A DNA stretch of 64,000 nt from Candidatus Moraniibacteriota bacterium (GCA_049287005.1 JBAQEZ010000002.1:19268-83267); one strand, 5' to 3'. Shown: positions 23,300 through 47,808, counted from the first letter of the stretch. Notes: a model not told the origin generated them from the letters alone. Numbers and translations are program-made.

Positions 23300-23372
23300 G
23301 GGCCGTTAGCTCATCTGGTAGAGCACCGCATTTGCAATGCGGGGGTGGCAGGTTCGAGTCCTGTACGGTCCA
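23300..23372 (+). tRNA. tRNA-Ala (anticodon TGC)
   Basis: Cloverleaf with anticodon loop TTTGCAA and the G3·U70 alanine identity pair. Confidence 0.85.
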
Positions 23373-23453
23373 CAATTCCCTTCCTTGATTCTTTCTCGCA
23401 TTCGTGTTAGCATGCGAGATGTTATTTTGCAAGGGGATGGGGATATCCAATGG

Positions 23454-23527
23454 GGGTGATTAGCTCAGTTGGTTAGAGCGCTACACTGATAATGTAGAGG
23501 TCCCAAGTTCGAATCTTGGATCACCCA
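23454..23527 (+). tRNA. tRNA-Ile (anticodon GAT)
   Basis: Cloverleaf with anticodon loop CTGATAA. Confidence 0.85.
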
Positions 23528-23640
23528 CAAAACTGCTCAAGGCAGCAATAATCAATAATCAAATTCCAAGAAATAAAAAAACGTGCTATCTTTGGTTGGT
23601 GATTGGATTTTGGCGATTAGCATTTCAAGTGAAGCGATAG

Positions 23641-23695
23641 AGCGGGATAGAGCAGGCTTGGTAAGTCAGCTCGTCTGGTTTGTAACGAAGAGAAG
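23641..23695 (+). pseudogene. decayed partial copy of the 5' half of the downstream initiator tRNA-Met (AGCGGGATAGAGCAGGCTTGGTAAGTCAGCTCGTCTGG…)
   Basis: Strong similarity to positions 1-35 of the tRNA at 23724, but the anticodon and T arms no longer fold. Confidence 0.4.
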
Positions 23696-23723
23696 GGATG
23701 CAGATAAAGTAAGAATCATATAT

Positions 23724-23797
23724 AGCGGGGTAGAGCAGTCTGGCAGCTCGTCTGGCTCATAACCAGAAGGTCGGTGGTTCGAATCCACCCCCCGCAA
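23724..23797 (+). tRNA. initiator tRNA-fMet (anticodon CAT)
   Basis: Near-identical to E. coli tRNA-fMet over most of its length, with A11:U24 and a 1:72 mismatch (A1·A72). Confidence 0.75.
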
Positions 23798-23908
23798 CAA
23801 GCGATAGCGAAGAGAGGAGGGAGCAAACAAACGGTTTTGCTTGCGATGGATGAGAGGGGATTTTTTCAGTTATTTTTATTTTTGATATTTTCACTTTGAA
23901 CTATCTAT

Positions 23909-23982
23909 GCCAGGGTAGCTCAGTTGGTTAGAGCATAGCCTTCATAAGGCTGGGGTCGCGAGTTCGAATCTCGCCCCTGGTA
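23909..23982 (+). tRNA. tRNA with anticodon CAT: elongator tRNA-Met or lysidine-modified tRNA-Ile2 (not resolvable from sequence)
   Basis: Cloverleaf with anticodon loop TTCATAA, a G1·U72 wobble, and three G-C pairs in the anticodon stem. Confidence 0.7.
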
Positions 23983-23999
23983 CAAGCAATTCAAGACAC

Positions 24000-24076
24000 G
24001 GGGGCGTAGCTCAGCTGGTTAGAGCGACTGCCTGTCACGCAGTAGGTCGCCGGTTCGAGTCCGGTCGCTCCCGCCA
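24000..24076 (+). tRNA. tRNA-Asp (anticodon GTC), CCA encoded
   Basis: Cloverleaf with anticodon loop CTGTCAC, ending …CGCTCCCGCCA. Confidence 0.85.
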
Positions 24077-40183: not shown

Positions 40184-40630
40184 ATGCAGATTCATGAATT
40201 GGGGCATGTCGTGCTGTATGTATCGAGCCTCGCGCGCTCGGCGGATTTTTATCGTGATACGTTGGGGTTCCATGAGATTGCGCGCGATAGGCAAATGGCG
40301 CTTTTCTTTTCCGGCCGCACGCACCATGAATTGCTCCTGATTGAAATAGGCGGCAGCCCGATACCGAAACACGCACCGGCTCCCGGACTGTACCACATCG
40401 GATTCAAGATCGGAGACGGTCCGGAAGCGCTGCAAGCGGCCTATCGCGAATTGCAAGACCGGGGAGTGACCATCATCGGAGCCACGGATCATCACGTGAC
40501 TCACAGCCTCTACATTCTCGATCCCGACGGCAACGAACTCGAACTCTACGCCGACGTCTCGGACGCATGGAAAACCGATCCCCGGGCCGTGCTCAAGCCG
40601 GGCACGTATCTTCCGCTGGAGGATAAATAG
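40184..40630 (+). CDS. VOC-family (glyoxalase/bleomycin-resistance/dioxygenase fold) protein
   Basis: Paired beta-alpha-beta-beta-beta modules (…HVVLYVSSLARSADFYRDTLGF… / …YHIGFKIGD…). Confidence 0.7.
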   Translation: MQIHELGHVVLYVSSLARSADFYRDTLGFHEIARDRQMALFFSGRTHHELLLIEIGGSPIPKHAPAPGLYHIGFKIGDGPEALQAAYRELQDRGVTIIGATDHHVTHSLYILDPDGNELELYADVSDAWKTDPRAVLKPGTYLPLEDK

Positions 40631-40635
40631 ACACG

Positions 40636-40660
40636 AACCTGCTACGAGGCAGGTTTTTTT
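40636..40660 (+). terminator. rho-independent terminator (AACCTGC-tacgag-GCAGGTT + T7) marking the left edge of the AT-rich island
   Basis: Hairpin followed by a T7 tract. Confidence 0.55.
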
Positions 40661-40741
40661 GTGGGGAATAAGTGAATTTTAACTATATTTCAAAAATAAT
40701 TAAATTTAGATTTTTAATAAAAATGGCTTAAATAAAGATAC

Positions 40742-40770
40742 TTGACATGAACATAGAGTCATATTATTAT
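40742..40770 (+). promoter_or_regulatory. candidate promoter TTGACA-17 bp-TATTAT; the predicted transcription start coincides with the lexA ATG (possible leaderless mRNA)
   Basis: Hexamers read from the sequence. The first in-frame ATG of the LexA winged helix (40777) lies 7 nt after the -10. Confidence 0.35.
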
Positions 40771-40776
40771 TTAATT

Positions 40777-41418
40777 ATGAAAAAATATCTTACTCTAAAA
40801 CAAAAAACTGTTCTCGAATTGATTTACGACTCTATCCGTTCTTCCGGTTTCCCGCCCACCCTAGCCGATCTAAAAGAGGAATTAGGAGTGTCTTCCAATC
40901 AGTCGGTTTTGAATTTTTTAGAAATATTAGGGAAAAAGGAATGTATAAAACGTGAAGAAGGGCAGGCACGGAGCATTACAATTTTGCCTTTAGGATATAG
41001 AGAAATAGGGAAAGAACCTCTGGTGCGGGTAACTGGTTATTCAGCAGCTGGACCCTACATTGAATCTTTTACAGAAACTTTGAATTGGTTGCCGCTTGAT
41101 GGGCAGGTCTTGGAGAACGAACAAATAAACCAAGCGCGAGACAAGGTGTTTATTATCCAAGTTATTGGTGATTCTATGATTAATGTGGGAATTAATGATG
41201 GTGATAATTTATTAGTCAAAGAATCCAGGGAGTATAAAAGTGGAGATATTGTTCTCGCGCGAACTGATGATGGCGTAACGGTAAAGCGTTTTATTGCTGA
41301 GGGAGGCAAAAGATATTTAAAGCCGGAAAATCCTACCTATGAAAAAATGGTAATTATCCCCGGCGAAGTACAATTTCAGGGCAAGATAATTCTAAACCTT
41401 TCTAAAATAAACCAATAA
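40777..41418 (+). CDS. lexA: LexA-family repressor (LexA winged-HTH + S24 autopeptidase)
   Basis: N-terminal LexA_DNA_bind pattern (LTLKQKTVLELIYDSIRSSGFPPTLADLKEEL…), S24 catalytic Ser (GDSM) and Lys (VKRF). AT-rich codon usage like the rest of the island. Confidence 0.75.
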   Translation: MKKYLTLKQKTVLELIYDSIRSSGFPPTLADLKEELGVSSNQSVLNFLEILGKKECIKREEGQARSITILPLGYREIGKEPLVRVTGYSAAGPYIESFTETLNWLPLDGQVLENEQINQARDKVFIIQVIGDSMINVGINDGDNLLVKESREYKSGDIVLARTDDGVTVKRFIAEGGKRYLKPENPTYEKMVIIPGEVQFQGKIILNLSKINQ

Positions 41419-41419
41419 T

Positions 41420-43336
41420 ATGGTGGATCAAAAAAAGACCAGTGAAATTTTTGGAAAAATATTTCGGAATCCGGATATGCAATTTGGGCTTTCCGTATTC
41501 GAGGGAATTATTCCGGAACAAGTGCTGAACCTTTTCGAAAAAGAGGGTAAATATTATTTGGAATGTTTAAAAAGAAAGAAAAGTATTCAAGCCAAGCCGG
41601 AAGAAATTGTGCGTCAACTTATGATCCATAAACTGGTTAATTTTTACAAATACCCGCTTGATCGAATGGATGTGGAGGTGGATGTGCAATTCGGTCGAGA
41701 AATCGGATCTAAGAGAGCAGACATTGTTATTTATCGCGAAGATGGTCGGACGCCGTATCTCGTGGTGGAAGTCAAGAAACCAGATGTCAAAGACGGTCTG
41801 GGCCAGCTCAAAAGCTATGCCAATGCGACTGGCGCTCCGATTCTGATACTTACTGATGGGAAAATACAAAATAATATTTTGCGAACTGACCCGAATCTTT
41901 TTGAGGATCTCCCGGAAATTCCGAAGTTTAATGAAACCGTGGAAGACGTGCGATCCAAAAAACTGACTTACAATGATCTTGATGAGATTCCCAATTTGCA
42001 ACAGCTTGTTTATGATTTGCAGGAAGTTGTGCTGGCAAACAGCGGCGTGGACTCCTTCGATGAAATTTTCAAGTTGATCTATGCCAAATTGTATGATGAA
42101 ATTGAAACTCCCAGAAATGAAAACAGGAGGTTCAGGGTAATTGCGGGCGTAACCAACAAAGAGAATCTCAATAATATTCAGCGCCTTTTTGAAGATGCTA
42201 AAAATCAGTGGCGCGATGTGTTCAAGGCGAATGATGAGATAGAGATTCCGGAAAATACGATTGTACCGGCAGTGTCGCTTCTGCAAAAATATCGACTTTT
42301 TGGTTCCAACCTTCAAATTATTGACGACGCTTTTGAATATCTCATCAATTTGGATGCCAAGGGAGAAAAGGGGCAATATTTCACACCACGCCACGTGATC
42401 GATATGGCGGTAAAAATGTTTCACCCCACTTCCAAAGATTTTATTATTGACACCGCCGCGGGCAGTTGCGGATTTTTGCTCCACGCGATGCAATATGTTT
42501 GGAATAATGAGCTTAATAAAGAAAAGTGGGGAGAAAGTTATGGTGTGAAGCAGAAAGATTATGCGGAAAAACGTTTGTTTGGTATAGATTTTGATCCGCG
42601 TTCAGTAAAAATCGGAAAAGCGATGATGCTTATTGCCGGAGACGGGAAAACAAATGTTTCTTATGCCGACTCTCTTGATAGCGAAGTATGGAATGAGGAC
42701 GTGAAGGCGAGGTTCAGGCCGTTTCTTAGAAATTTTAAAGACCATGAAGAAAATAGAAGAAATCAGGAAAAGATGGCTGATTTTAATTTTGATATCGTAC
42801 TTACTAATCCGCCGTTTGCTGGAGAGAAAAAAGGCGTGATTCTCAATCGGTATGATCTTGGGTTCAAGTGGGACAAAGATTTTCAAAAAACATCCAAACA
42901 TCAAAACAAAGTTTCACGCGATGTACTTTTTATCGAACGGGATTTGAATTTCTTGAAGCCAGGCGGGCGAATGGCCATTGTTTTGCCGCAAGGAGTTTTG
43001 AATAATACGCAGATGGAGTATGTCCGCAAGTTTGTCATGAATAAAGCAAAAATTTTGGCGGTGGTGGGGCTTCACGGAAATACTTTCAAACCGCACACGG
43101 GCACAAAAACATCCGTTTTGTTTTTGCAAAAATGGGGTGGTGAAGCTGGCGAGCCACAAGTGGATTACCCGATTTTTATGGCTGTATCCAAAAAGGGCGG
43201 CAAAGATACTTCTGGCGAATATGTTTATAGAAAAGATAGCGAGGGGAATGTGATGTATGACGATTGGGGGAAAAAAATCATTGACCATGATCTAGATGAA
43301 ATCGCGGAGGAGTTTTTGAATTTTATGAAAAAATAA
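41420..43336 (+). CDS. restriction-modification protein: N-terminal PD-(D/E)xK/HSDR_N-like nuclease domain fused to gamma-class N6-adenine DNA methyltransferase (BcgI-A-like, or HsdM with N-terminal nuclease-like domain)
   Basis: Residues about 95-150 (RADIVIYREDGRTPYLVVEVKKPD…ILILTDGK) match the D…EVK nuclease core. Motif I (IIDTAAGSCGFLL) precedes motif IV (NPPF). 638 aa. Starts 1 bp after the lexA stop. Confidence 0.75.
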   Translation: MVDQKKTSEIFGKIFRNPDMQFGLSVFEGIIPEQVLNLFEKEGKYYLECLKRKKSIQAKPEEIVRQLMIHKLVNFYKYPLDRMDVEVDVQFGREIGSKRADIVIYREDGRTPYLVVEVKKPDVKDGLGQLKSYANATGAPILILTDGKIQNNILRTDPNLFEDLPEIPKFNETVEDVRSKKLTYNDLDEIPNLQQLVYDLQEVVLANSGVDSFDEIFKLIYAKLYDEIETPRNENRRFRVIAGVTNKENLNNIQRLFEDAKNQWRDVFKANDEIEIPENTIVPAVSLLQKYRLFGSNLQIIDDAFEYLINLDAKGEKGQYFTPRHVIDMAVKMFHPTSKDFIIDTAAGSCGFLLHAMQYVWNNELNKEKWGESYGVKQKDYAEKRLFGIDFDPRSVKIGKAMMLIAGDGKTNVSYADSLDSEVWNEDVKARFRPFLRNFKDHEENRRNQEKMADFNFDIVLTNPPFAGEKKGVILNRYDLGFKWDKDFQKTSKHQNKVSRDVLFIERDLNFLKPGGRMAIVLPQGVLNNTQMEYVRKFVMNKAKILAVVGLHGNTFKPHTGTKTSVLFLQKWGGEAGEPQVDYPIFMAVSKKGGKDTSGEYVYRKDSEGNVMYDDWGKKIIDHDLDEIAEEFLNFMKK

Positions 43337-43349
43337 TTATTAAAATCAT

Positions 43350-43943
43350 ATGTTTAATCAAAGTAAAGACGGAATAAAGAGTGAAAAGATAATTTATATT
43401 TTTATTGATGCTTCAAATCTTTGGCAAGCACAGAAAGCTAAGGGGAAACTTTTTGATTACGAGAAGCTTAGAAATTTTTTGAAAAGCAAGTTTGAAGGAT
43501 CAGAAATAAAAGTTTTTTACTATACTGCATATCCTGCTGATGGGACGAGAAGTTACAGTACTGATGGGAGACATAAATTTTATACTTTTCTAAAGAAAGG
43601 GCTAGGTTTTGTTGTTAGAAAAAAGGAGTTAAAACGTATATCAGTAATTACTGACGAAGGACAAGCTATTGAGGAAAAGGGAAATATGGACGTGGAAATG
43701 ACCATTGATGTTATACACTATATGAAAAAATATGGTGTAGCTATTTTGTTCACAGGTGATTCAGACTTTTTAGCACTAGTGACTTATTTAAGAAACGGCG
43801 GTAAAAAGGTTTATATTTTTTCATCGGAAAATAATGTTTCTAGAGAGTTAAAAACTGGAGGGGATGGATACTTTGATGTGCTGAAAATCAAAGAAGACAT
43901 CTGGGGCAAGGAGTTAAAATATAGGTCTGAAAAAGCCGAATAA
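43350..43943 (+). CDS. NYN-domain (LabA/PIN-like) putative ribonuclease
   Basis: IFIDASNL, NMDVEMTIDVI and LFTGDSDFLALV acidic motifs of NYN/PIN-like RNases. 13 bp after the M gene stop. Confidence 0.7.
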   Translation: MFNQSKDGIKSEKIIYIFIDASNLWQAQKAKGKLFDYEKLRNFLKSKFEGSEIKVFYYTAYPADGTRSYSTDGRHKFYTFLKKGLGFVVRKKELKRISVITDEGQAIEEKGNMDVEMTIDVIHYMKKYGVAILFTGDSDFLALVTYLRNGGKKVYIFSSENNVSRELKTGGDGYFDVLKIKEDIWGKELKYRSEKAE

Positions 43944-43947
43944 AAAC

Positions 43948-43973
43948 AACCCTCCTCGCGGAGGGTTGCTCTT
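43948..43973 (+). terminator. weak terminator-like hairpin (AACCCTCC-tcgc-GGAGGGTT) with a poor U-tract
   Basis: 8-bp stem read from the sequence. Confidence 0.3.
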
Positions 43974-44097
43974 GGATGTAATACCCTTTCAGTTATGGCT
44001 AACCGAAAGACATTACAAATATAGCAGATTATAATGGTTTGTCAAGGGGTTTACGCTTTCATCAACTAATACACTTATTATTTATATAAATAACAAT

Positions 44098-44451
44098 ATG
44101 GAAAATCAAGACCAGGACAAACTGATGAGACTATATACGAGATTGAGTGCTCTTAAAAATAATTTATCAAAAGATCATGGTATTTTGGACACTTTTGTCA
44201 AAGAATATTACACAATCGTTAATGAGCTAGTCGAGCTAACAGGTTTAAATTTAGACGAATTTAAAATTCCAATGTCTGAGGTTAAACCATATCTAATTGG
44301 TAGAGACTATGATGGACAAAAGACTTATACGGAAGAAATATTTTGTAACGGTTCATTATTTTTTAGTAAATTTGATGCCTTGATGACATATTTTCAAATA
44401 AAATATTTATCAAAAGAAAATATGAAAATTGGCTTTAATACCAAAGAGTAA
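44098..44451 (+). CDS. hypothetical protein (117 aa), immediately upstream of hsdS (3-bp gap)
   Basis: Intact ORF with island-like AT-rich codon usage. No recognisable motif. Confidence 0.4.
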   Translation: MENQDQDKLMRLYTRLSALKNNLSKDHGILDTFVKEYYTIVNELVELTGLNLDEFKIPMSEVKPYLIGRDYDGQKTYTEEIFCNGSLFFSKFDALMTYFQIKYLSKENMKIGFNTKE

Positions 44452-44454
44452 TTT

Positions 44455-45816
44455 ATGAATTTTTCAATAATTCAAAAATCTCAACTCGAAGGCGCTTCGC
44501 GGCTTGATGCTGAATATTATCAGCCGGAGTTTCTAATGTTTGTAAACAATTTAAAGGGGTTTGAATTGCAATTATTGGAAGAAATATCTTCAAAGATAGA
44601 TGTTGGTTTTGTGTCTTCTATGGTAAGACATTTTTGCAATAATGGGGTACCGTTGCTAAGAACACAAAATGTTGATGAGTTTGTTACAGATTTTGAAAAC
44701 GGTATTGTTTATATTGACGAAAAGTTTCATAAACAATTAAAAAAGAGCCAAGTTTATCCCGGGTATGTTTTATTGGCGAGAAGCGGGTCAATTGGCAACG
44801 CGAGTGTTGTAACGGAAAATAATCCGATTGCAAATTCTGCAGATATTATTTTGATAAAACCAAAAGAAAACATCTTGCCAGAGTATTTGGCAGCCTTTTT
44901 AAATTCAAAATACGGTAGGTTTCAGATTGAGAGAGGATCAAGCGGGGGTCTTCAGGGGCATATGAATTTATTTAGTCTCGAAAAAATAATCCTTCCTGTT
45001 GTAAGTATTGATATCCAACAGACGATTAGAATGATAGTTTTGCATGGTCTAGATGCATTCGAAAATTCAAAATTATTATATCAGCAAGCCGAAAATTTAC
45101 TTTTAGAAGCATTGGGATTAAAGGGTTTTGATAATGAGGAAAAATTATCATCAATTGTGAATCTTTCTGAAATAGAGTCAGCTTGTCGTATAGATGCTGA
45201 ATATTATCAGCCAAAGTATAAAATCATTGAAGATAAAGTTAAAAATTATAATGTGCATAAATTAGGTGATTTGGTTTCAATGAAAAAAGGGATTGAAGTC
45301 GGGGCGGAAAAATATCAAGAAGAGGGAAAAGTTTTTATTCGGGTGAGCAGTATGACAAAATTTGGAATTGAGGAGAGTGATCAAAAATACCTGAGCGATA
45401 AATTGTATGAAAAATTGAAAGATGACTTTGAACCAAAAAAAGGTGAAATTTTACTGACCAAGGATGCAACTCCGGGGATTGCTTTTGTTTTGAAAAAAGA
45501 TATTCAAGGGATCGTGTCAGGTGGCACTCTTCGGTTGAAATTGAAAAATGTAGGAGTTGAGCCTGAATATTTGGCACTTTGTCTAAATTCCATTATTGGG
45601 CAAATGCAAGCCGAGCGAGATGCTGGCGGATCAGTCATCGCCCACTGGAAACCGGAACAAATTAAAAATGTTCTTATCCCGATTTTATCCAAGGAAATAC
45701 AACAAAAAATTGCTGATTTTGTTCGACAATCTCACGAAGCACGAAAAAAAGCAAAGGAATTGCTTGAGGAGGCAAAAAGAAAAGTTGAAGAAATGATTGA
45801 GAAAGGGGGTGAATAA
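44455..45816 (+). CDS. hsdS: restriction-modification specificity subunit (HsdS/BcgI-B-like) with two target-recognition domains
   Basis: Duplicated conserved segments (…RLDAEYYQP… and …RIDAEYYQPKY…) flanking two variable TRDs. C-terminal coiled-coil. Confidence 0.85.
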   Translation: MNFSIIQKSQLEGASRLDAEYYQPEFLMFVNNLKGFELQLLEEISSKIDVGFVSSMVRHFCNNGVPLLRTQNVDEFVTDFENGIVYIDEKFHKQLKKSQVYPGYVLLARSGSIGNASVVTENNPIANSADIILIKPKENILPEYLAAFLNSKYGRFQIERGSSGGLQGHMNLFSLEKIILPVVSIDIQQTIRMIVLHGLDAFENSKLLYQQAENLLLEALGLKGFDNEEKLSSIVNLSEIESACRIDAEYYQPKYKIIEDKVKNYNVHKLGDLVSMKKGIEVGAEKYQEEGKVFIRVSSMTKFGIEESDQKYLSDKLYEKLKDDFEPKKGEILLTKDATPGIAFVLKKDIQGIVSGGTLRLKLKNVGVEPEYLALCLNSIIGQMQAERDAGGSVIAHWKPEQIKNVLIPILSKEIQQKIADFVRQSHEARKKAKELLEEAKRKVEEMIEKGGE

Positions 45817-45817
45817 T

Positions 45818-46024
45818 ATGGCAAAATACAATCGGAATTCAGGGAAGCCGTGGACAGGGAAAGAGGTTGAGAAACTTGAAAAACTAGCGAAAGGAAATAC
45901 ACCTACGCGAGTTATCGGTCTTGATCTCGGTCGTACGGAAAATGCAGTTCGAAAGAAAGCATCACAAAATGACATTACTTTAAATCCGCCAAATCAAAAA
46001 CCGTATAATCGGAGGAAAAAATAA
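45818..46024 (+). CDS. small Myb/SANT-like HTH protein (68 aa)
   Basis: KPWTGKEVEKLEKLAKGNTPTRVIGLDLGRTENAVRKKAS fits the W-x2-EE-x-L…G…I…GR-x3-A tri-helical pattern. Same domain as the helicase C-terminus at 29.1 kb. ATG 1 nt after the hsdS stop. Confidence 0.4.
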   Translation: MAKYNRNSGKPWTGKEVEKLEKLAKGNTPTRVIGLDLGRTENAVRKKASQNDITLNPPNQKPYNRRKK

Positions 46025-46215
46025 AGTCATAAATAAAACCAGTGTGTCGATTCAGCTTTTCCGCTCTCCCTGTGAGATATCCGGAAAACAGCATAACGGC
46101 GTGACATTTTTCCAGCTCGAAAGAGTTGGTTTTTGTTTGGGTGTATAATTGGAAAAGAAAAGGGGTCAGGTACCTTTTTGAAAATTACGTAACCGGTTAC
46201 GTACAAGATGAAGCT

Positions 46216-46479
46216 ATGTATTACCTCTATATCCTCAAGTGTGCGGATGGGACGCTGTATACAGGGATCACGGTTGATCTGAAGCGGAGGATCACGGAGC
46301 ATAATAGTTTGGCGCTCGGGGCGAAATATACCCGGGGGCGCCGGCCAGTCATTCTTGTTTTTTCTCAGAAATTTCGCACCCGTTCCACCGCCTCCCAGGT
46401 CGAATCCCGCATCAAGAAACTCTCTCGCATTCAGAAGCTTGAGCTCATTGCCTCTGTTTATGAGGCCAAGAAAGTATAA
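46216..46479 (+). CDS. GIY-YIG nuclease family protein (short stand-alone, YhbQ/UPF0213-like), copy 1
   Basis: YYLYILKCADGTLYTGITVDLKRRITEHN… contains the GIY…YTG and RR…EHN motifs. Start trimmed to ATG 46216. Confidence 0.7.
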   Translation: MYYLYILKCADGTLYTGITVDLKRRITEHNSLALGAKYTRGRRPVILVFSQKFRTRSTASQVESRIKKLSRIQKLELIASVYEAKKV

Positions 46480-46529: not shown

Positions 46530-47051
46530 ATGAAAAAACGAGTGATCATTGTAATCGGTATCGTCTGTGTCGGCCTCATCGGTATGGTCGGTTTTGCAGT
46601 TTTTAAGAGGCAGTCGCCGGAGCCGGTCGGGTGCACGATGGAGGCGAAGCTCTGCCCGGATGGGTCGGCAGTCGGACGGAGCGGGCCGGAGTGCACATTC
46701 GCTCCGTGCCCGAGTGTCCCGATCGCGAACGAAAATATCCGCGTCACGCTGCCTTTGCCCGATGACGTCGTCAAGAGTCCGCTCAAGATACAAGGCGAAG
46801 CGAGAGGTCTATGGTATTTCGAAGGGAGCTTCCCGGTCTCCATTATCGGCGAGAATGGGATGACGCTCGGGCAAGGAATCGCACAGGCCCAAGGGGATTG
46901 GATGACTACGGACTGGGTGCCGTTCGAGGCAACAATTTCTTTTACCGTGCCCGAAACTGCGACTGGAACACTCATCCTGGAAAAGGACAATTCATCCGGT
47001 CTCCCCGAAAACGCTGACGAGCTCCGCGTCCCCGTGCGTTTCGCTCCTTAA
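46530..47051 (+). CDS. membrane-anchored exported protein with a 4-Cys knob motif and Gmad2-like Ig-fold domain
   Basis: TM anchor, then GCTMEAKLCPDGSAVGRSGPECTFAPCP, then a beta-rich domain resembling Gmad2. Confidence 0.45.
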   Translation: MKKRVIIVIGIVCVGLIGMVGFAVFKRQSPEPVGCTMEAKLCPDGSAVGRSGPECTFAPCPSVPIANENIRVTLPLPDDVVKSPLKIQGEARGLWYFEGSFPVSIIGENGMTLGQGIAQAQGDWMTTDWVPFEATISFTVPETATGTLILEKDNSSGLPENADELRVPVRFAP

Positions 47052-47422: not shown

Positions 47423-47503
47423 ATGCTCCTGATAGTCGTCATAGTGGTCGCGGTCCTCATCTTCGGAGCGGCTTTCATCGCGGTCTCCGAGAAGAAAAAA
47501 TGA
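47423..47503 (+). CDS. possible 26-aa hydrophobic micro-protein (MLLIVVIVVAVLIFGAAFIAVSEKKK)
   Basis: ATG…TGA ORF whose stop overlaps (ATGA) the start of the next ORF. A single TM-like segment. Below the size cut-off of the ORF track. Confidence 0.2.
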   Translation: MLLIVVIVVAVLIFGAAFIAVSEKKK

Positions 47504-47547
47504 AGAAAAAAATAAAAAAAATAGAAAAGATGGAAAGGATGGGAAAA

Positions 47548-47808
47548 ATGAAAAAAAATCTGTATGCTCTCTATATGCTCAGATGCGCGGATGGGACCCT
47601 GTATACGGGGATCACGGTCGATGTGCGCAGGCGGATCAGCGAGCATAACTCTTCGTCGCTGGGGGCGAAATATACCCGCGGGCGGCGACCGGTGAAACTG
47701 GTTTTTTCCAAGTTGTTTCGCAATCGCTCCGAGGCATCCGGAGAAGAGGCTCGCATCAAAAAATTGTCTCGCGCAGAGAAGCTCGCCATGATCAAGAAAA
47801 AAATATGA
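47548..47808 (+). CDS. GIY-YIG nuclease family protein, copy 2 (paralog of 46216..46479)
   Basis: LYALYMLRCADGTLYTGITVDVRRRISEHN…: same motifs. About 75-80 % nucleotide identity to copy 1 over about 230 bp. The track ORF starts at 47500 with a Lys-rich leader. Confidence 0.65.
   Translation: MKKNLYALYMLRCADGTLYTGITVDVRRRISEHNSSSLGAKYTRGRRPVKLVFSKLFRNRSEASGEEARIKKLSRAEKLAMIKKKI

What the first reader, a model, noticed from the sequence alone, without database searches (positions are those of the whole stretch)
40636..46025. AT-rich 5.4-kb island carrying a composite restriction/defence locus (lexA | R-M fusion | NYN | unknown | hsdS | Myb-like)
GC drops from above 50 % in the flanking genes (VOC at 40184; GIY-YIG at 46216) to about 36-40 % across six consecutive genes. 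The drop begins exactly at a terminator at 40636-40660 and ends at 46025. Such a compositional step points to horizontal acquisition. The gene set looks like a defence island: two tight operons, lexA/R-M-fusion/NYN (gaps of 1 and 13 bp) and unknown/hsdS/Myb-like (gaps of 3 and 1 bp). No integrase, transposase or flanking tRNA is visible, so the mobilisation route is unknown.
Basis: partly seen in the sequence, partly recalled or inferred. Interest (0 to 1): 0.8.

Follow-up and report, generated by a model that had tools for sequence, protein, structure and literature searches.

The report
LexA-led mobile restriction module with cargo
The AT-rich stretch is a horizontally acquired copy of a restriction-modification cassette widespread in ultra-small (CPR) bacteria: a LexA-type repressor gene heads it, and a variable slot inside it carries here an RNase gene with a previously uncatalogued small RNA.

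Summary
Window 40661-46025 has 36.5% GC against 51.9% for the rest of the 64 kb. Island genes have GC3 of 0.25-0.43; flanking host genes have 0.59-0.80.

The host is a Candidatus Moraniibacteriota (CPR). The island is not a random collection of genes. It is one copy of a conserved module found in many CPR classes, with its own GC of about 30-42%:
- a lexA-like gene;
- a nuclease-methyltransferase fusion ("RM");
- a variable cargo slot;
- hsdS.

The RM protein is closest to the type IIB enzyme BsaXI and keeps its four catalytic nuclease residues. No HsdR is present in the window.

The LexA-like protein keeps its cleavage site and Ser/Lys dyad. It sits behind a conserved promoter that appears leaderless and carries a palindrome between the -35 and -10 boxes.

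Here the cargo slot holds a NYN RNase, a convergent roughly 70-nt small RNA gene and a 117-aa helical protein. The small RNA is not in Rfam. It has at least 120 metagenomic copies, and 92 of 110 testable ones sit next to a NYN gene.

Relatives of the host carry other R-M systems at the same place, downstream of the VOC gene. No mobilisation gene was found.

This is a new variant of a known kind, of moderate interest.

The parts
40635..40660 (+). Intrinsic terminator of the host VOC gene; left compositional edge of the island
   Evidence: 9-bp stem, 4-nt loop, T-run. GC falls from 0.58 to 0.34 across it.
40723..40737 (.). Conserved upstream element ATGGCTTAAATAAAG. It is a GCTT-N5-AAGC dyad in several homologous promoters; its function is unknown.
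   Evidence: Alignment A1 of 13 module promoters. DNA homology between module copies starts at 40712-40721.
40742..40770 (+). Promoter of the lexA-RM-NYN operon: TTGACA, 17 nt, TATTAT. Only 6 nt separate the -10 box from ATG 40777, so the mRNA is probably leaderless.
   Evidence: Matches 11 of 12 consensus positions. The same layout, with 6-7 nt from the -10 box to the ATG, is seen in most of the 13 aligned loci.
40747..40762 (.). Candidate operator ATGAACATAGAGTCAT (consensus ATGAC-N6-GTCAT), between and overlapping the -35 and -10 boxes
   Evidence: The GAC...GTC dyad is conserved in the aligned promoters; G59, T60 and C61 are invariant or nearly invariant. It is the best-matching copy found in a promoter setting; five other single-mismatch matches were not examined. 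Matches are only marginally above chance across the window, 36 against 25.5 expected, reached by 2 of 100 shuffles.
40777..41418 (+). LexA-like repressor, 213 aa: winged-HTH plus S24 autoprotease. Ala91-Gly92, Ser133 and Lys170 are present.
   Evidence: Pfam LexA_DNA_bind and Peptidase_S24. TIGR00498 scores 134.9 bits against a cutoff of 110.95. Full-length match to E. coli LexA structures, E 8e-21. The Ser and Lys motifs are kept in all 15 homologues and the cleavage site is Ala-Gly in 13 of them, Cys-Gly in L013 and L014.
41420..43336 (+). Bifunctional RM protein, 638 aa. N-terminal PD-(D/E)xK nuclease (E86, D101, E117, K119), helical connector, gamma-class N6-adenine methyltransferase (NPPF 463-466) and a C-terminal helix.
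   Evidence: HSDR_N_2 + N6_Mtase. PADLOC MTase_I PDLC03034, E 2.6e-185. Best PDB match is RM.BsaXI, type IIB. The BsaXI catalytic residues E73, D90, E105 and K107 (PMC11997821) align to residues that are invariant in 15 family members.
43350..43943 (+). NYN (PIN-like) predicted ribonuclease, 197 aa; cargo gene
   Evidence: PF01936, E 4e-22. PADLOC 'LabA-like NYN nuclease', E 2e-11. Acidic residues D20, D114, E116, D120, D137 and D139 are invariant in 59 distinct homologues.
43942..44045 (-). Small RNA gene. Promoter: TTGACA at 44045-44040 and a TG-extended -10 ending at 44018. Transcript: about 44013 to 43942, made of hairpin 1, an invariant AGGGUAUUACAUCC linker and a terminator hairpin with a U-run that overlaps the NYN stop codon.
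   Evidence: Promoter scan matches 11 of 12 positions, with TG. Conserved in every RM locus that has NYN. At least 120 metagenomic copies. Covariation supports both hairpins. No Rfam family reaches its gathering score.
44007..44035 (+). Promoter-like site (AAGACA, 17 nt, TATAAT) for the second operon, unk117-hsdS-small. It overlaps the small RNA promoter back to back.
   Evidence: Matches 10 of 12 consensus positions. This is a consensus match only.
44098..44451 (+). 117-aa protein of unknown function: predicted helices plus a beta-hairpin
   Evidence: No Pfam family reaches its cutoff and there is no NCBIfam, PADLOC or PHROG hit. The family has 234 representatives at E <= 1e-3. AF2 model pLDDT 85. 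No specific fold match. Homologues sit before hsdS in L004 and L147 and after an AAA_15 ATPase in L150.
44455..45816 (+). Specificity (S) subunit, 453 aa, with two target-recognition domains. It is mosaic: the conserved blocks 44455-44532, 45062-45260 and 45661-45812 separate variable domains.
   Evidence: Methylase_S, two stretches. PADLOC Specificity_I, E 3e-60, full length. Patchy DNA homology to other copies. Protein identity is 30-79% while the RM protein stays at 64-89%.
45818..46024 (+). 68-aa basic protein, possibly a Myb/SANT-like HTH. It is AT-rich but absent from the other module copies examined.
   Evidence: PHROG 323 'transcriptional regulator', E 5e-9. No Pfam hit. The top PDB hit is a Myb-like domain at E 0.67, not significant. 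No tblastn hit in the fetched loci searched.
46031..46215 (+). Right junction: terminator-like hairpin (46112-46129), TATAAT (46144-46149) and an 18-bp perfect palindrome TACGTAACCGGTTACGTA (46186-46203) in front of the host GIY-YIG gene
   Evidence: 82% identical over 121 nt to the stretch after hsdS in L003, and alignable further on, where it precedes a KilA-N gene. GC is intermediate. GIY-YIG has host-like GC3 of 0.61.

Best explanation
Window 40661-46025 is a horizontally acquired copy of a mobile restriction-modification module that circulates among CPR (Patescibacteria) genomes.

Shown:
- The core is three genes in fixed order, lexA-like, RM and hsdS, with a variable cargo slot between RM and hsdS.
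- RM is a single polypeptide with an N-terminal PD-(D/E)xK nuclease and an N6-adenine methyltransferase. The S protein has two target-recognition domains.
- No translocase (HsdR) is present in the window.

Inferred (enzyme): RM and S assemble as an (RM)2S complex like the type IIB enzymes BcgI and BsaXI. The complex would methylate a bipartite site on host DNA and cut unmodified incoming DNA near the site. Swapping of recognition domains in S changes specificity between copies.

Inferred (control): The LexA-like protein, first gene of a probably leaderless transcript, binds the palindrome between the -35 and -10 boxes of its own promoter. It thereby keeps RM, and here NYN, at a low steady level after a burst on entry into a new cell. 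This is the role that C proteins or RptR play in other R-M systems. Its intact autocleavage site and Ser/Lys dyad would in addition allow derepression when RecA filaments form, for example on DNA damage, phage replication or self-restriction.

Cargo: The slot here holds a separable two-part cassette, a NYN ribonuclease with a convergent roughly 70-nt small RNA, plus a 117-aa helical protein. The most likely reading is a toxin-like RNase held in check by the small RNA, acting as a back-up layer of defence. This step is conjecture.

Arrival: The module sits at a spot downstream of the VOC gene that holds different R-M systems in related genomes. The route of insertion is unknown.
For: Composition step.

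Module conservation. Of 17 genome loci with an RM homologue, 14 have a LexA-like gene directly upstream and 15 have hsdS downstream. Further metagenome loci show the same order: L045, L068, L094, L100, L119. The module has its own GC in every host.

Type IIB likeness. The best solved relative is RM.BsaXI. Its four catalytic residues align to E86, D101, E117 and K119, which are invariant in 15 family members, as is NPPF. The S protein has two recognition domains. No ORF in the window is HsdR-like; the two ORFs of 700 aa or more are TopA and a P-type ATPase. Outside CPR the family occurs as a bare RM+S pair on a Klebsiella plasmid and as an 1179-aa single chain on plasmid pAQ6. The BsaXI paper describes both layouts, RM + S and single-chain RMS, for type IIB enzymes.

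LexA-like controller. Domains and the TIGR00498 score are above cutoff. The match to solved LexA is full length. The Ser and Lys motifs are kept in all 15 homologues and the cleavage site is Ala-Gly in 13 of them. The promoter and dyad are conserved in 13 loci. In L012 an XRE-type HTH occupies the same slot. In L150 a LexA-S24 module is fused to a C5 methyltransferase.

Cargo slot. It holds NYN, DUF3800, RhuM, membrane proteins and unknowns in different copies.

NYN-sRNA cassette.

Hotspot.
Against: - No enzyme activity, methylation motif or transcript was observed; everything rests on sequence.
- The RM protein is annotated in databases only as a methylase. PADLOC files it under type I M subunits.
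- An HsdR gene elsewhere in the genome cannot be excluded from a 64-kb window.
- LexA binding to the dyad is inferred from position and conservation. In this window the dyad is imperfect.
- Whether the genome has another lexA, or a recA, was not tested.
- 18 of the 110 testable small RNA copies lack an adjacent NYN gene.
- The small RNA shows no excess complementarity to the NYN translation start, so its link to NYN may be indirect.
- No mobility gene or insertion scar explains how the module moves.
Confidence: 0.72

Rival explanations
1. The pair is a methylation-only (orphan M+S) system. The N-terminal HSDR_N_2 domain would be inactive or serve DNA binding, so the locus sets an epigenetic mark rather than restricting DNA.
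For: Sources name the protein 'N-6 DNA methylase' or 'type I M protein'. PADLOC's best model is MTase_I. No separate nuclease gene is present.
Against: The four residues shown by mutagenesis to be essential for BsaXI cleavage align to residues invariant across 15 homologues of 60-91% identity. That pattern fits an active nuclease under selection. The mosaic S subunit and the spread by horizontal transfer are typical of restriction systems.
Confidence: 0.13
2. The lexA gene is the host's ordinary SOS regulator and merely lies next to an inserted R-M system. It does not regulate the module.
For: It passes the NCBIfam LexA equivalog cutoff and has every LexA hallmark.
Against: Its GC3 is 0.34, like the island and unlike host genes at 0.59-0.80. 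It is 1 bp from RM. LexA-like homologues sit directly upstream of RM in 14 of 17 genome loci from different CPR classes, with a conserved promoter and dyad. DNA homology between copies starts upstream of its promoter. No other match was found in a promoter setting, and matches are only marginally above chance in the 64 kb. It could still double as the cell's only LexA, which was not tested.
Confidence: 0.1
3. The locus is a reduced member of the MADS methylation-associated defence system, with MAD2-like methylase and MAD5-like S subunit.
For: NCBIfam MAD2 at 307 bits and MAD5 at 182 bits are the top NCBIfam hits. PADLOC mad2 and mad5 also hit.
Against: Both scores are far below the curated cutoffs of 720 and 400. 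The PADLOC MTase_I and Specificity_I models score much higher. No other mad gene was detected among the six proteins.
Confidence: 0.03
4. The NYN gene and small RNA are an ordinary RNA-processing pair of CPR cells that happens to sit in the slot. They are not a toxin-antitoxin or defence element.
For: In 53 of 62 copies with enough flank, no RM homologue follows the cassette. Some small RNA copies lie beside ribosomal protein genes without NYN: L022, L060. There is no excess pairing to the NYN start region.
Against: The cassette recurs in the cargo slot of a defence operon alongside DUF3800, RhuM and membrane proteins, which often accompany R-M systems (this last from general knowledge). NYN has PADLOC hits to defence-associated models. 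The convergent layout with a 3' overlap recalls type I toxin-antitoxin pairs.
Confidence: 0.3
5. The low GC is native, a functional or mutational peculiarity, not a sign of transfer.
For: Nothing specific. Many carriers of the module are themselves low-GC, so no step is visible there.
Against: The step is sharp in GC and GC3. The same block is a trough in every high-GC host: L003, L007, L016. Relatives have other cargo at this site.
Confidence: 0.02

Closest known systems
Type IIB restriction-modification enzymes of the 'RM + S' layout (BcgI, BsaXI; PMC11997821)
   Same: One polypeptide has an N-terminal PD-(D/E)xK nuclease with the E...D...ExK residues, a helical connector and a gamma-class N6-adenine methyltransferase. 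A separate HsdS-like subunit has two recognition domains. There is no translocase. RM.BsaXI is the best solved relative.
   Different: Similarity to BsaXI is distant (E 2.7e-24, local), and the protein lacks BsaXI's long C-terminal 'paddle' (638 against 916 aa). Cutting on both sides of the site is untested. A LexA-type regulator and an internal cargo slot are not described for the type IIB systems in that paper.
RptR-controlled type I R-M system with embedded DarTG2 toxin-antitoxin in enteropathogenic E. coli (PMC12255303)
   Same: A repressor gene heads the operon and binds repeats or palindromes in its promoter. A toxin module is embedded inside the R-M operon. The regulator and its site are conserved along with the R-M system.
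   Different: RptR is described only as a small transcriptional regulator, with no protease or damage-sensing domain mentioned. That R-M system is classical type I with HsdR. The cargo is a protein-protein TA pair (DarTG), not an RNase with a small RNA. The lineage is Gammaproteobacteria.
C (controller) proteins of type II R-M systems (reviewed in PMC3874152)
   Same: A small regulator is encoded at the head of the R-M operon and acts on its own promoter to time and limit expression after transfer. In L012 an XRE-type HTH like a C protein occupies the lexA position.
   Different: C proteins are roughly 80-aa XRE HTH proteins without a protease domain, and they mainly delay a separate R gene. 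Here R and M are one protein, and the regulator is a full LexA homologue.
E. coli symE/symR next to the hsd genes (PMC1891008)
   Same: Both have a LexA-repressed toxin and a cis-encoded small RNA. From my own knowledge, SymE is RNase-associated and lies next to the type I R-M genes.
   Different: SymR overlaps the 5' end of symE; here the small RNA lies at the 3' end. SymE has an AbrB-like fold, not NYN. LexA there is the chromosomal SOS repressor.
EcoprrI-PrrC (anticodon nuclease embedded in a type I R-M operon; from my own knowledge, not checked here)
   Same: A latent ribonuclease gene is inserted between subunit genes of an R-M operon, giving a second layer of defence.
   Different: PrrC is an ABC-ATPase/HEPN-type anticodon nuclease kept silent by protein contact with the R-M enzyme. 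No small RNA is involved.

Membership tests
Type IIB R-M (RM + S layout) | Single polypeptide with an N-terminal PD-(D/E)xK nuclease carrying the catalytic E...D...ExK residues | tested here: met
   HSDR_N_2, E 3e-24. E86, D101, E117 and K119 align to BsaXI E73, D90, E105 and K107 and are invariant in 15 homologues.
Type IIB R-M (RM + S layout) | N6-adenine methyltransferase domain in the same chain, with an AdoMet motif followed by NPPF/Y | tested here: met
   N6_Mtase, E 2e-34. DTAAGSCGF at residue 344 and NPPF at 463-466, with the G348-F352 stretch of the first motif and all of NPPF invariant.
Type IIB R-M (RM + S layout) | Separate HsdS-like specificity subunit with two recognition domains | tested here: met
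   Methylase_S, two stretches. PADLOC Specificity_I covers residues 17-449.
Type IIB R-M (RM + S layout) | No ATP-dependent translocase subunit | tested here: inconclusive
   None in the island or the 64-kb window; the two ORFs of 700 aa or more are TopA and a P-type ATPase. None next to the 17 other copies. The rest of the genome was not seen.
Type IIB R-M (RM + S layout) | Cuts both strands on both sides of a bipartite site, excising a short fragment | not testable with these tools
   Needs purified enzyme.
LexA repressor (TIGR00498) | Winged-HTH LexA DNA-binding domain plus S24 domain, scoring above the family cutoff | tested here: met
   134.9 bits against a cutoff of 110.95. Both Pfam domains hit. 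The match to solved LexA is full length.
LexA repressor (TIGR00498) | Ala-Gly cleavage site and Ser/Lys catalytic dyad | tested here: met
   A91-G92, S133 (GDSM) and K170 (TVKR). The Ser and Lys motifs are kept in all 15 homologues; the cleavage site is Ala-Gly in 13 and Cys-Gly in L013 and L014.
LexA repressor (TIGR00498) | Represses a genome-wide SOS regulon through a shared operator | tested here: inconclusive
   No match other than the island's own was found in a promoter setting, and matches are only marginally above chance in 64 kb. The whole genome was not available.
LexA repressor (TIGR00498) | RecA-filament-stimulated self-cleavage | not testable with these tools
   Biochemical assay needed. 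Presence of recA in this genome was not checked.
Classical type I R-M | Separate HsdR (helicase-nuclease) subunit alongside HsdM and HsdS | tested here: not met
   No HsdR in the window or beside other copies. The nuclease domain is fused to the methylase instead.
MADS defence system | MAD2 and MAD5 above the NCBIfam cutoffs, plus the other mad genes | tested here: not met
   307 bits against 720 and 182 bits against 400. No further mad hits among the six proteins.
C-protein-controlled R-M | Small XRE-family HTH controller | tested here: not met
   The regulator here is LexA-type. An XRE HTH takes its place only in L012.
Rfam small RNA families | Score at or above a family's gathering threshold | tested here: not met
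   Only tRNAs pass in the window. The best sub-threshold hit is BTnc231 at 30.6 bits against 80.4, with many non-standard pairs.
Toxin-antitoxin pair with an RNA antitoxin (type I or III) | Toxic protein neutralised by an adjacent small RNA | not testable with these tools
   Only the layout (convergent, 3' overlap) and co-occurrence (92 of 110) are shown. No pairing to the NYN start region.

The most novel reading that the evidence does not exclude
A full LexA homologue has been recruited as the built-in controller of a mobile type IIB-like R-M module. DNA damage or phage-induced RecA filaments would then switch on restriction together with whatever cargo sits in the operon. The NYN-plus-small-RNA cargo would be a new kind of RNA-controlled ribonuclease toxin (abortive-infection or addiction module) that is widespread in CPR bacteria. 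The LexA-S24-methyltransferase fusion seen in L150 would be the same logic in one chain.
Probability: 0.3. Interest if true: 0.75.

Novelty: new variant of a known kind. Interest (0 to 1): 0.55.

Why it matters
CPR bacteria have tiny genomes and were long thought poor in defence systems. Here a compact, self-regulated R-M module spreads across many CPR classes and carries a slot that samples accessory genes.

If the LexA-type controller works as inferred, it links restriction directly to a DNA-damage signal. I found no description of this for R-M systems in the papers I could search.

The small RNA next to NYN is a concrete, testable new RNA family with more than a hundred copies. It could give a first handle on RNA-based regulation, or on toxin control, in uncultured bacteria.

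Practically, the S-subunit mosaics predict many new bipartite methylation specificities. These could be read from long-read metagenomes and used to link mobile DNA to CPR hosts.

Tried and rejected
- Flanking direct or inverted repeats as insertion scars: only short chance-like matches.
- tRNA as an integration site: the nearest is 16 kb away.
- A phage origin: neither the RM protein nor the small RNA pattern was found in IMG/VR viral contigs. GenBank phage hits to the RM protein are at most 46% identical.
- Exact-protein look-up of the RM protein in assemblies: not on record.
- Function of the 117-aa protein:
  - No family reaches its cutoff in four HMM libraries.
  - Foldseek against PDB gave nothing below E 0.39.
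- Small RNA as a trans-acting antisense to the NYN translation start: duplex energies are no better than against control segments of the coding region, -15.6 against -17.8 kcal/mol.
- Small RNA as Rfam BTnc231 or Phe leader: sub-threshold matches driven by the terminator hairpin.
- LexA dyad elsewhere in the window as evidence of a regulon: only marginally above chance.
- The DnaA-box-like motif TTATCCACA, seen upstream of many CPR promoters in the fetched loci: not enriched in this window.
- MADS membership: rejected on curated cutoffs.

Full report
**1. Observation**

The compositional island is real and unique in the window.
- GC is 0.29-0.44 in every 400-bp step between 40600 and 46199, and 0.46-0.60 on both sides. 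No other 1-kb bin of the 64 kb falls below 0.456.
- In non-overlapping 500-bp windows, the ten inside the island average 0.369. The 116 outside average 0.519 +/- 0.037. The highest inside value equals the lowest outside value.
- Third-codon-position GC is 0.25-0.43 for the six island genes. It is 0.59-0.80 for VOC, the MGMT-like gene, GIY-YIG, Gmad2, TopA and a P-type ATPase.
- The nearest tRNA genes are at 23300-24076.
- No flanking repeats bound the island.

**2. Host and gene content**

Database names for identical or near-identical proteins place the window in a Candidatus Moraniibacteriota MAG, a member of the CPR/Patescibacteria.

The six proteins are:
- **LexA homologue.** It has LexA_DNA_bind and Peptidase_S24 domains. 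TIGR00498 scores 134.9 bits against a cutoff of 110.95.
- **Nuclease-methylase fusion ("RM"), 638 aa.** It has HSDR_N_2 plus N6_Mtase domains.
- **NYN-domain protein.**
- **117-aa protein.** No family reaches its cutoff in any of the four libraries.
- **HsdS-like protein** with two recognition domains.
- **68-aa basic protein.** It has only a PHROG 'transcriptional regulator' hit.

**3. The R-M core**

The RM protein's best solved relative is RM.BsaXI, a type IIB enzyme. The BsaXI cryo-EM paper identifies E73, D90, E105 and K107 as the catalytic residues and calls them absolutely conserved in type IIB enzymes (PMC11997821).

In the phmmer alignment these pair with E86, D101, E117 and K119 of the window protein. 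All four, and the NPPF methylase motif, are invariant in an alignment of 15 family members of 60-91% identity.

No HsdR-like ORF exists in the window or beside the other copies.

The NCBIfam MADS models MAD2 and MAD5 hit far below their cutoffs.

Outside CPR the same family occurs in two forms. One is a bare RM+S gene pair on a Klebsiella IncF plasmid. The other is an 1179-aa single chain on Picosynechococcus plasmid pAQ6. The BsaXI paper describes both layouts, RM + S and single-chain RMS, for type IIB enzymes.

I therefore read RM+S as a BcgI/BsaXI-like type IIB-type system. Its cleavage behaviour remains untested.

**4. It is a conserved mobile module**

A scan of one genome per species found 17 loci with an RM homologue of 64-89% identity. 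They come from Moranii-, Kerfeld-, Peri- and Saccharibacteria, Absconditabacterales and unclassified Parcubacteria.
- 14 have a LexA-like gene immediately upstream and 15 have hsdS downstream.
- DNA similarity to the window starts at 40712-40721 in most copies and ends at about 45803-45833.
- The module keeps 30-42% GC in every host. It shows as a trough in the other high-GC hosts: L003, L007, L016.
- HsdS is mosaic. Three short conserved blocks separate recognition domains that share only 30-79% identity, while RM stays at 64-89%. This is the usual sign of specificity swapping.
- RM homologues of up to 92% identity, more than 7,000 hits at E <= 1e-20, are spread over CPR metagenomes.

**5. 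The site is a hotspot**

Genomes whose VOC protein is 83% identical (L140-L143) or 78% identical (L144-L146) keep partial synteny on the left: an MGMT-like gene and, further off, TopA. They do not have this module.

Instead, AT-rich cargo of other kinds follows VOC:
- an N4/N6 methylase plus Dam plus another LexA-like protein;
- or a type III Mod-Res pair plus a DpnII/MboI-like gene.

A RhuM-Fic gene sits upstream.

**6. The LexA-like controller**

Aligned homologues all start at the position of ATG 40777. All keep the GDSM serine and the (T)VK(R) lysine. Thirteen of the fifteen keep the Ala-Gly cleavage site; L013 and L014 have Cys-Gly there. The protein aligns over its full length with solved LexA structures.

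Upstream lies a near-consensus promoter, TTGACA-17-TATTAT at 40742-40770. Its -10 box ends 6 nt before the ATG. The same 6-7-nt spacing recurs in most of the other loci, which argues for a leaderless transcript.

Between the -35 and -10 boxes all copies carry a dyad, consensus ATGAC-N6-GTCAT. A second conserved element, ATGGCTTAAATAAAG, lies just upstream. No other match was found in a promoter setting. Matches are only marginally above chance across the window.

Three further facts tie a regulator of this kind to the methylase:
- In L012 an XRE-type HTH gene replaces lexA.
- In L013 and L014 a LexA-like protein only 27% identical holds the same place.
- In L150 a complete LexA-S24 module is fused to a C5 DNA methyltransferase next to a Vsr gene.

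The inference is that the protein autoregulates the operon, as C proteins or RptR do, and adds a damage-sensitive switch. I found no paper describing a LexA-type regulator of an R-M system in the searchable library. The nearest described architecture is RptR heading a type I system with embedded DarTG2 (PMC12255303).

**7. The cargo slot**

Between RM and hsdS the copies carry zero to three unrelated genes:
- NYN (window, L004, L005, L007, L018, L147);
- DUF3800 (L007, L008);
- RhuM (L012);
- small membrane or coiled-coil proteins and unknowns.

**8. NYN and a small RNA**

The NYN protein keeps the acidic residues expected of a PIN-like nuclease.

Directly after its stop codon, on the opposite strand, lies a small transcription unit.
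- It has a TTGACA -35 box (44045-40) and a TG-extended -10 box ending at 44018.
- It encodes a roughly 70-nt RNA with a hairpin, an invariant AGGGUnnUACAUCC linker and a terminator hairpin. The terminator's U-run overlaps the NYN stop codon.
- A pattern from its conserved core found nothing in viral contigs.
- In 92 of 110 sites with enough flank, a NYN gene of 44-88% identity converges on the RNA's 3' end. Only 9 of 62 sites have an RM homologue beyond NYN.

On 94 distinct sequences, 98.5% of cells pair. There are 118 cells with changes on both sides, against 26 +/- 4 in shuffles and 4-31 in slid controls. One caveat applies: the search pattern fixed the 5' arm of hairpin 1.

A covariance model finds the RNA in every NYN-bearing RM locus and in L011, but in no RM locus with other cargo. 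It finds no second copy in the window. Rfam has no matching family.

Two points argue against a strict pairing of the RNA with NYN. Eighteen sites lack an adjacent NYN gene, some of them beside ribosomal protein genes. The RNA also shows no special complementarity to the NYN start region.

The toxin-plus-RNA-antidote reading is therefore a hypothesis. A housekeeping RNase/RNA pair is a live rival.

**9. The other two genes**

*The 117-aa protein.* It belongs to a family of about 234 representative sequences, most of them small stand-alone proteins of similar length. Close homologues sit in the same RM-NYN-x-hsdS position (L004, L147), or after an AAA_15 ATPase in another R-M context (L150). 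A confident model (pLDDT 85) gives helices plus a beta-hairpin with no informative structural neighbour.

*The 68-aa protein.* It was not found in the module copies and small-RNA loci searched. 'Myb-like' remains a guess.

**10. Right junction and mobility**

The stretch 46031-46215 contains a terminator, a TATAAT box and an 18-bp perfect palindrome. It precedes the host-like GIY-YIG gene.

It is 82% identical over 121 nt to the stretch following hsdS in L003, and alignable further on, where it precedes a KilA-N gene. It may mark a shared recombination joint or a portable regulatory cassette.

No integrase, transposase, tRNA or repeat explains the insertion. Uptake followed by recombination at a variable hotspot is the default guess and is unproven.

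**11. Verdict**

The locus is best filed as a new variant of a known kind: a type IIB-like R-M system with an unusual LexA-type controller and an internal cargo slot.

The most original item is the NYN-associated small RNA.

Interest is moderate. R-M islands are common. But the regulator, the modular slot and the RNA are each testable and, as far as I could search, undescribed.

Noticed in passing
window 43942-44045, minus strand: Candidate small RNA gene of about 70 nt with its own near-consensus promoter and terminator, convergent with the NYN gene. It has at least 120 metagenomic copies, and 92 of 110 testable ones sit next to a NYN gene. Covariation supports two hairpins. It is absent from Rfam.
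   Followed up: yes
window 46031-46215; L003 7013-7180, 8299-8324, 9960-9998: Terminator plus TATAAT plus an 18-bp perfect palindrome (TACGTAACCGGTTACGTA, 46186-46203) in front of GIY-YIG. An 82%-identical stretch (121 nt, alignable further on) follows hsdS in another Moraniibacteriota locus, in front of a KilA-N gene, and parts of it are repeated there. It could be a portable regulatory cassette or a recombination joint.
   Followed up: partly
window 46216-46479 and 47500-47808: Two paralogous small GIY-YIG genes flank a Gmad2-domain gene (46530-47051) and a 108-aa ORF, just right of the island. GIY-YIG homologues also lie near module copies in L005 and L009. Any role in mobility is unknown.
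   Followed up: no
L150 1083-2651, minus strand: A 522-aa protein that fuses a complete LexA (HTH, Ala-Gly site, GDSM, a TLKK motif at the catalytic-lysine position) to a C5 DNA methyltransferase. It lies next to Vsr, an AAA_15 ATPase and a homologue of the 117-aa protein.
   Followed up: partly
L012 9188-9439: An 83-aa XRE-type HTH (HTH_3) gene occupies the position of lexA directly upstream of the RM homologue. This suggests interchangeable controllers.
   Followed up: partly
L140-L146 (relatives of the host, downstream of the VOC gene): The same chromosomal spot holds other AT-rich R-M cargo in related genomes: an N4/N6 methylase plus Dam plus another LexA-like protein, or a type III Mod-Res pair plus a DpnII/MboI-like gene. 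RhuM-Fic genes sit upstream. The site behaves as a defence hotspot.
   Followed up: partly
promoter regions in L004, L010, L011, L016 and most small RNA loci (L021-L139): A DnaA-box-like motif, TTATCCACA or its complement, sits within about 15 nt upstream of the -35 box of many CPR promoters in the fetched loci. It is not enriched in this window (13 matches against 10.8 expected).
   Followed up: partly
L003-L018, between RM and hsdS: The cargo slot holds DUF3800 (L007, L008), RhuM (L012), several small membrane or coiled-coil proteins and unknown proteins of 176-315 aa. In L014 a DUF2188 gene sits between lexA and RM.
   Followed up: partly
L001 and L002 (Logan contigs of the same strain): Both short-read contigs that carry the identical VOC-lexA junction end inside the RM gene. 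This fits several diverged copies of the gene in those communities breaking the assembly.
   Followed up: no
L011 4821-4915 and L068: The small RNA lies directly after the RM gene without any NYN gene, and with a different terminator hairpin. The RNA can therefore persist without NYN.
   Followed up: no
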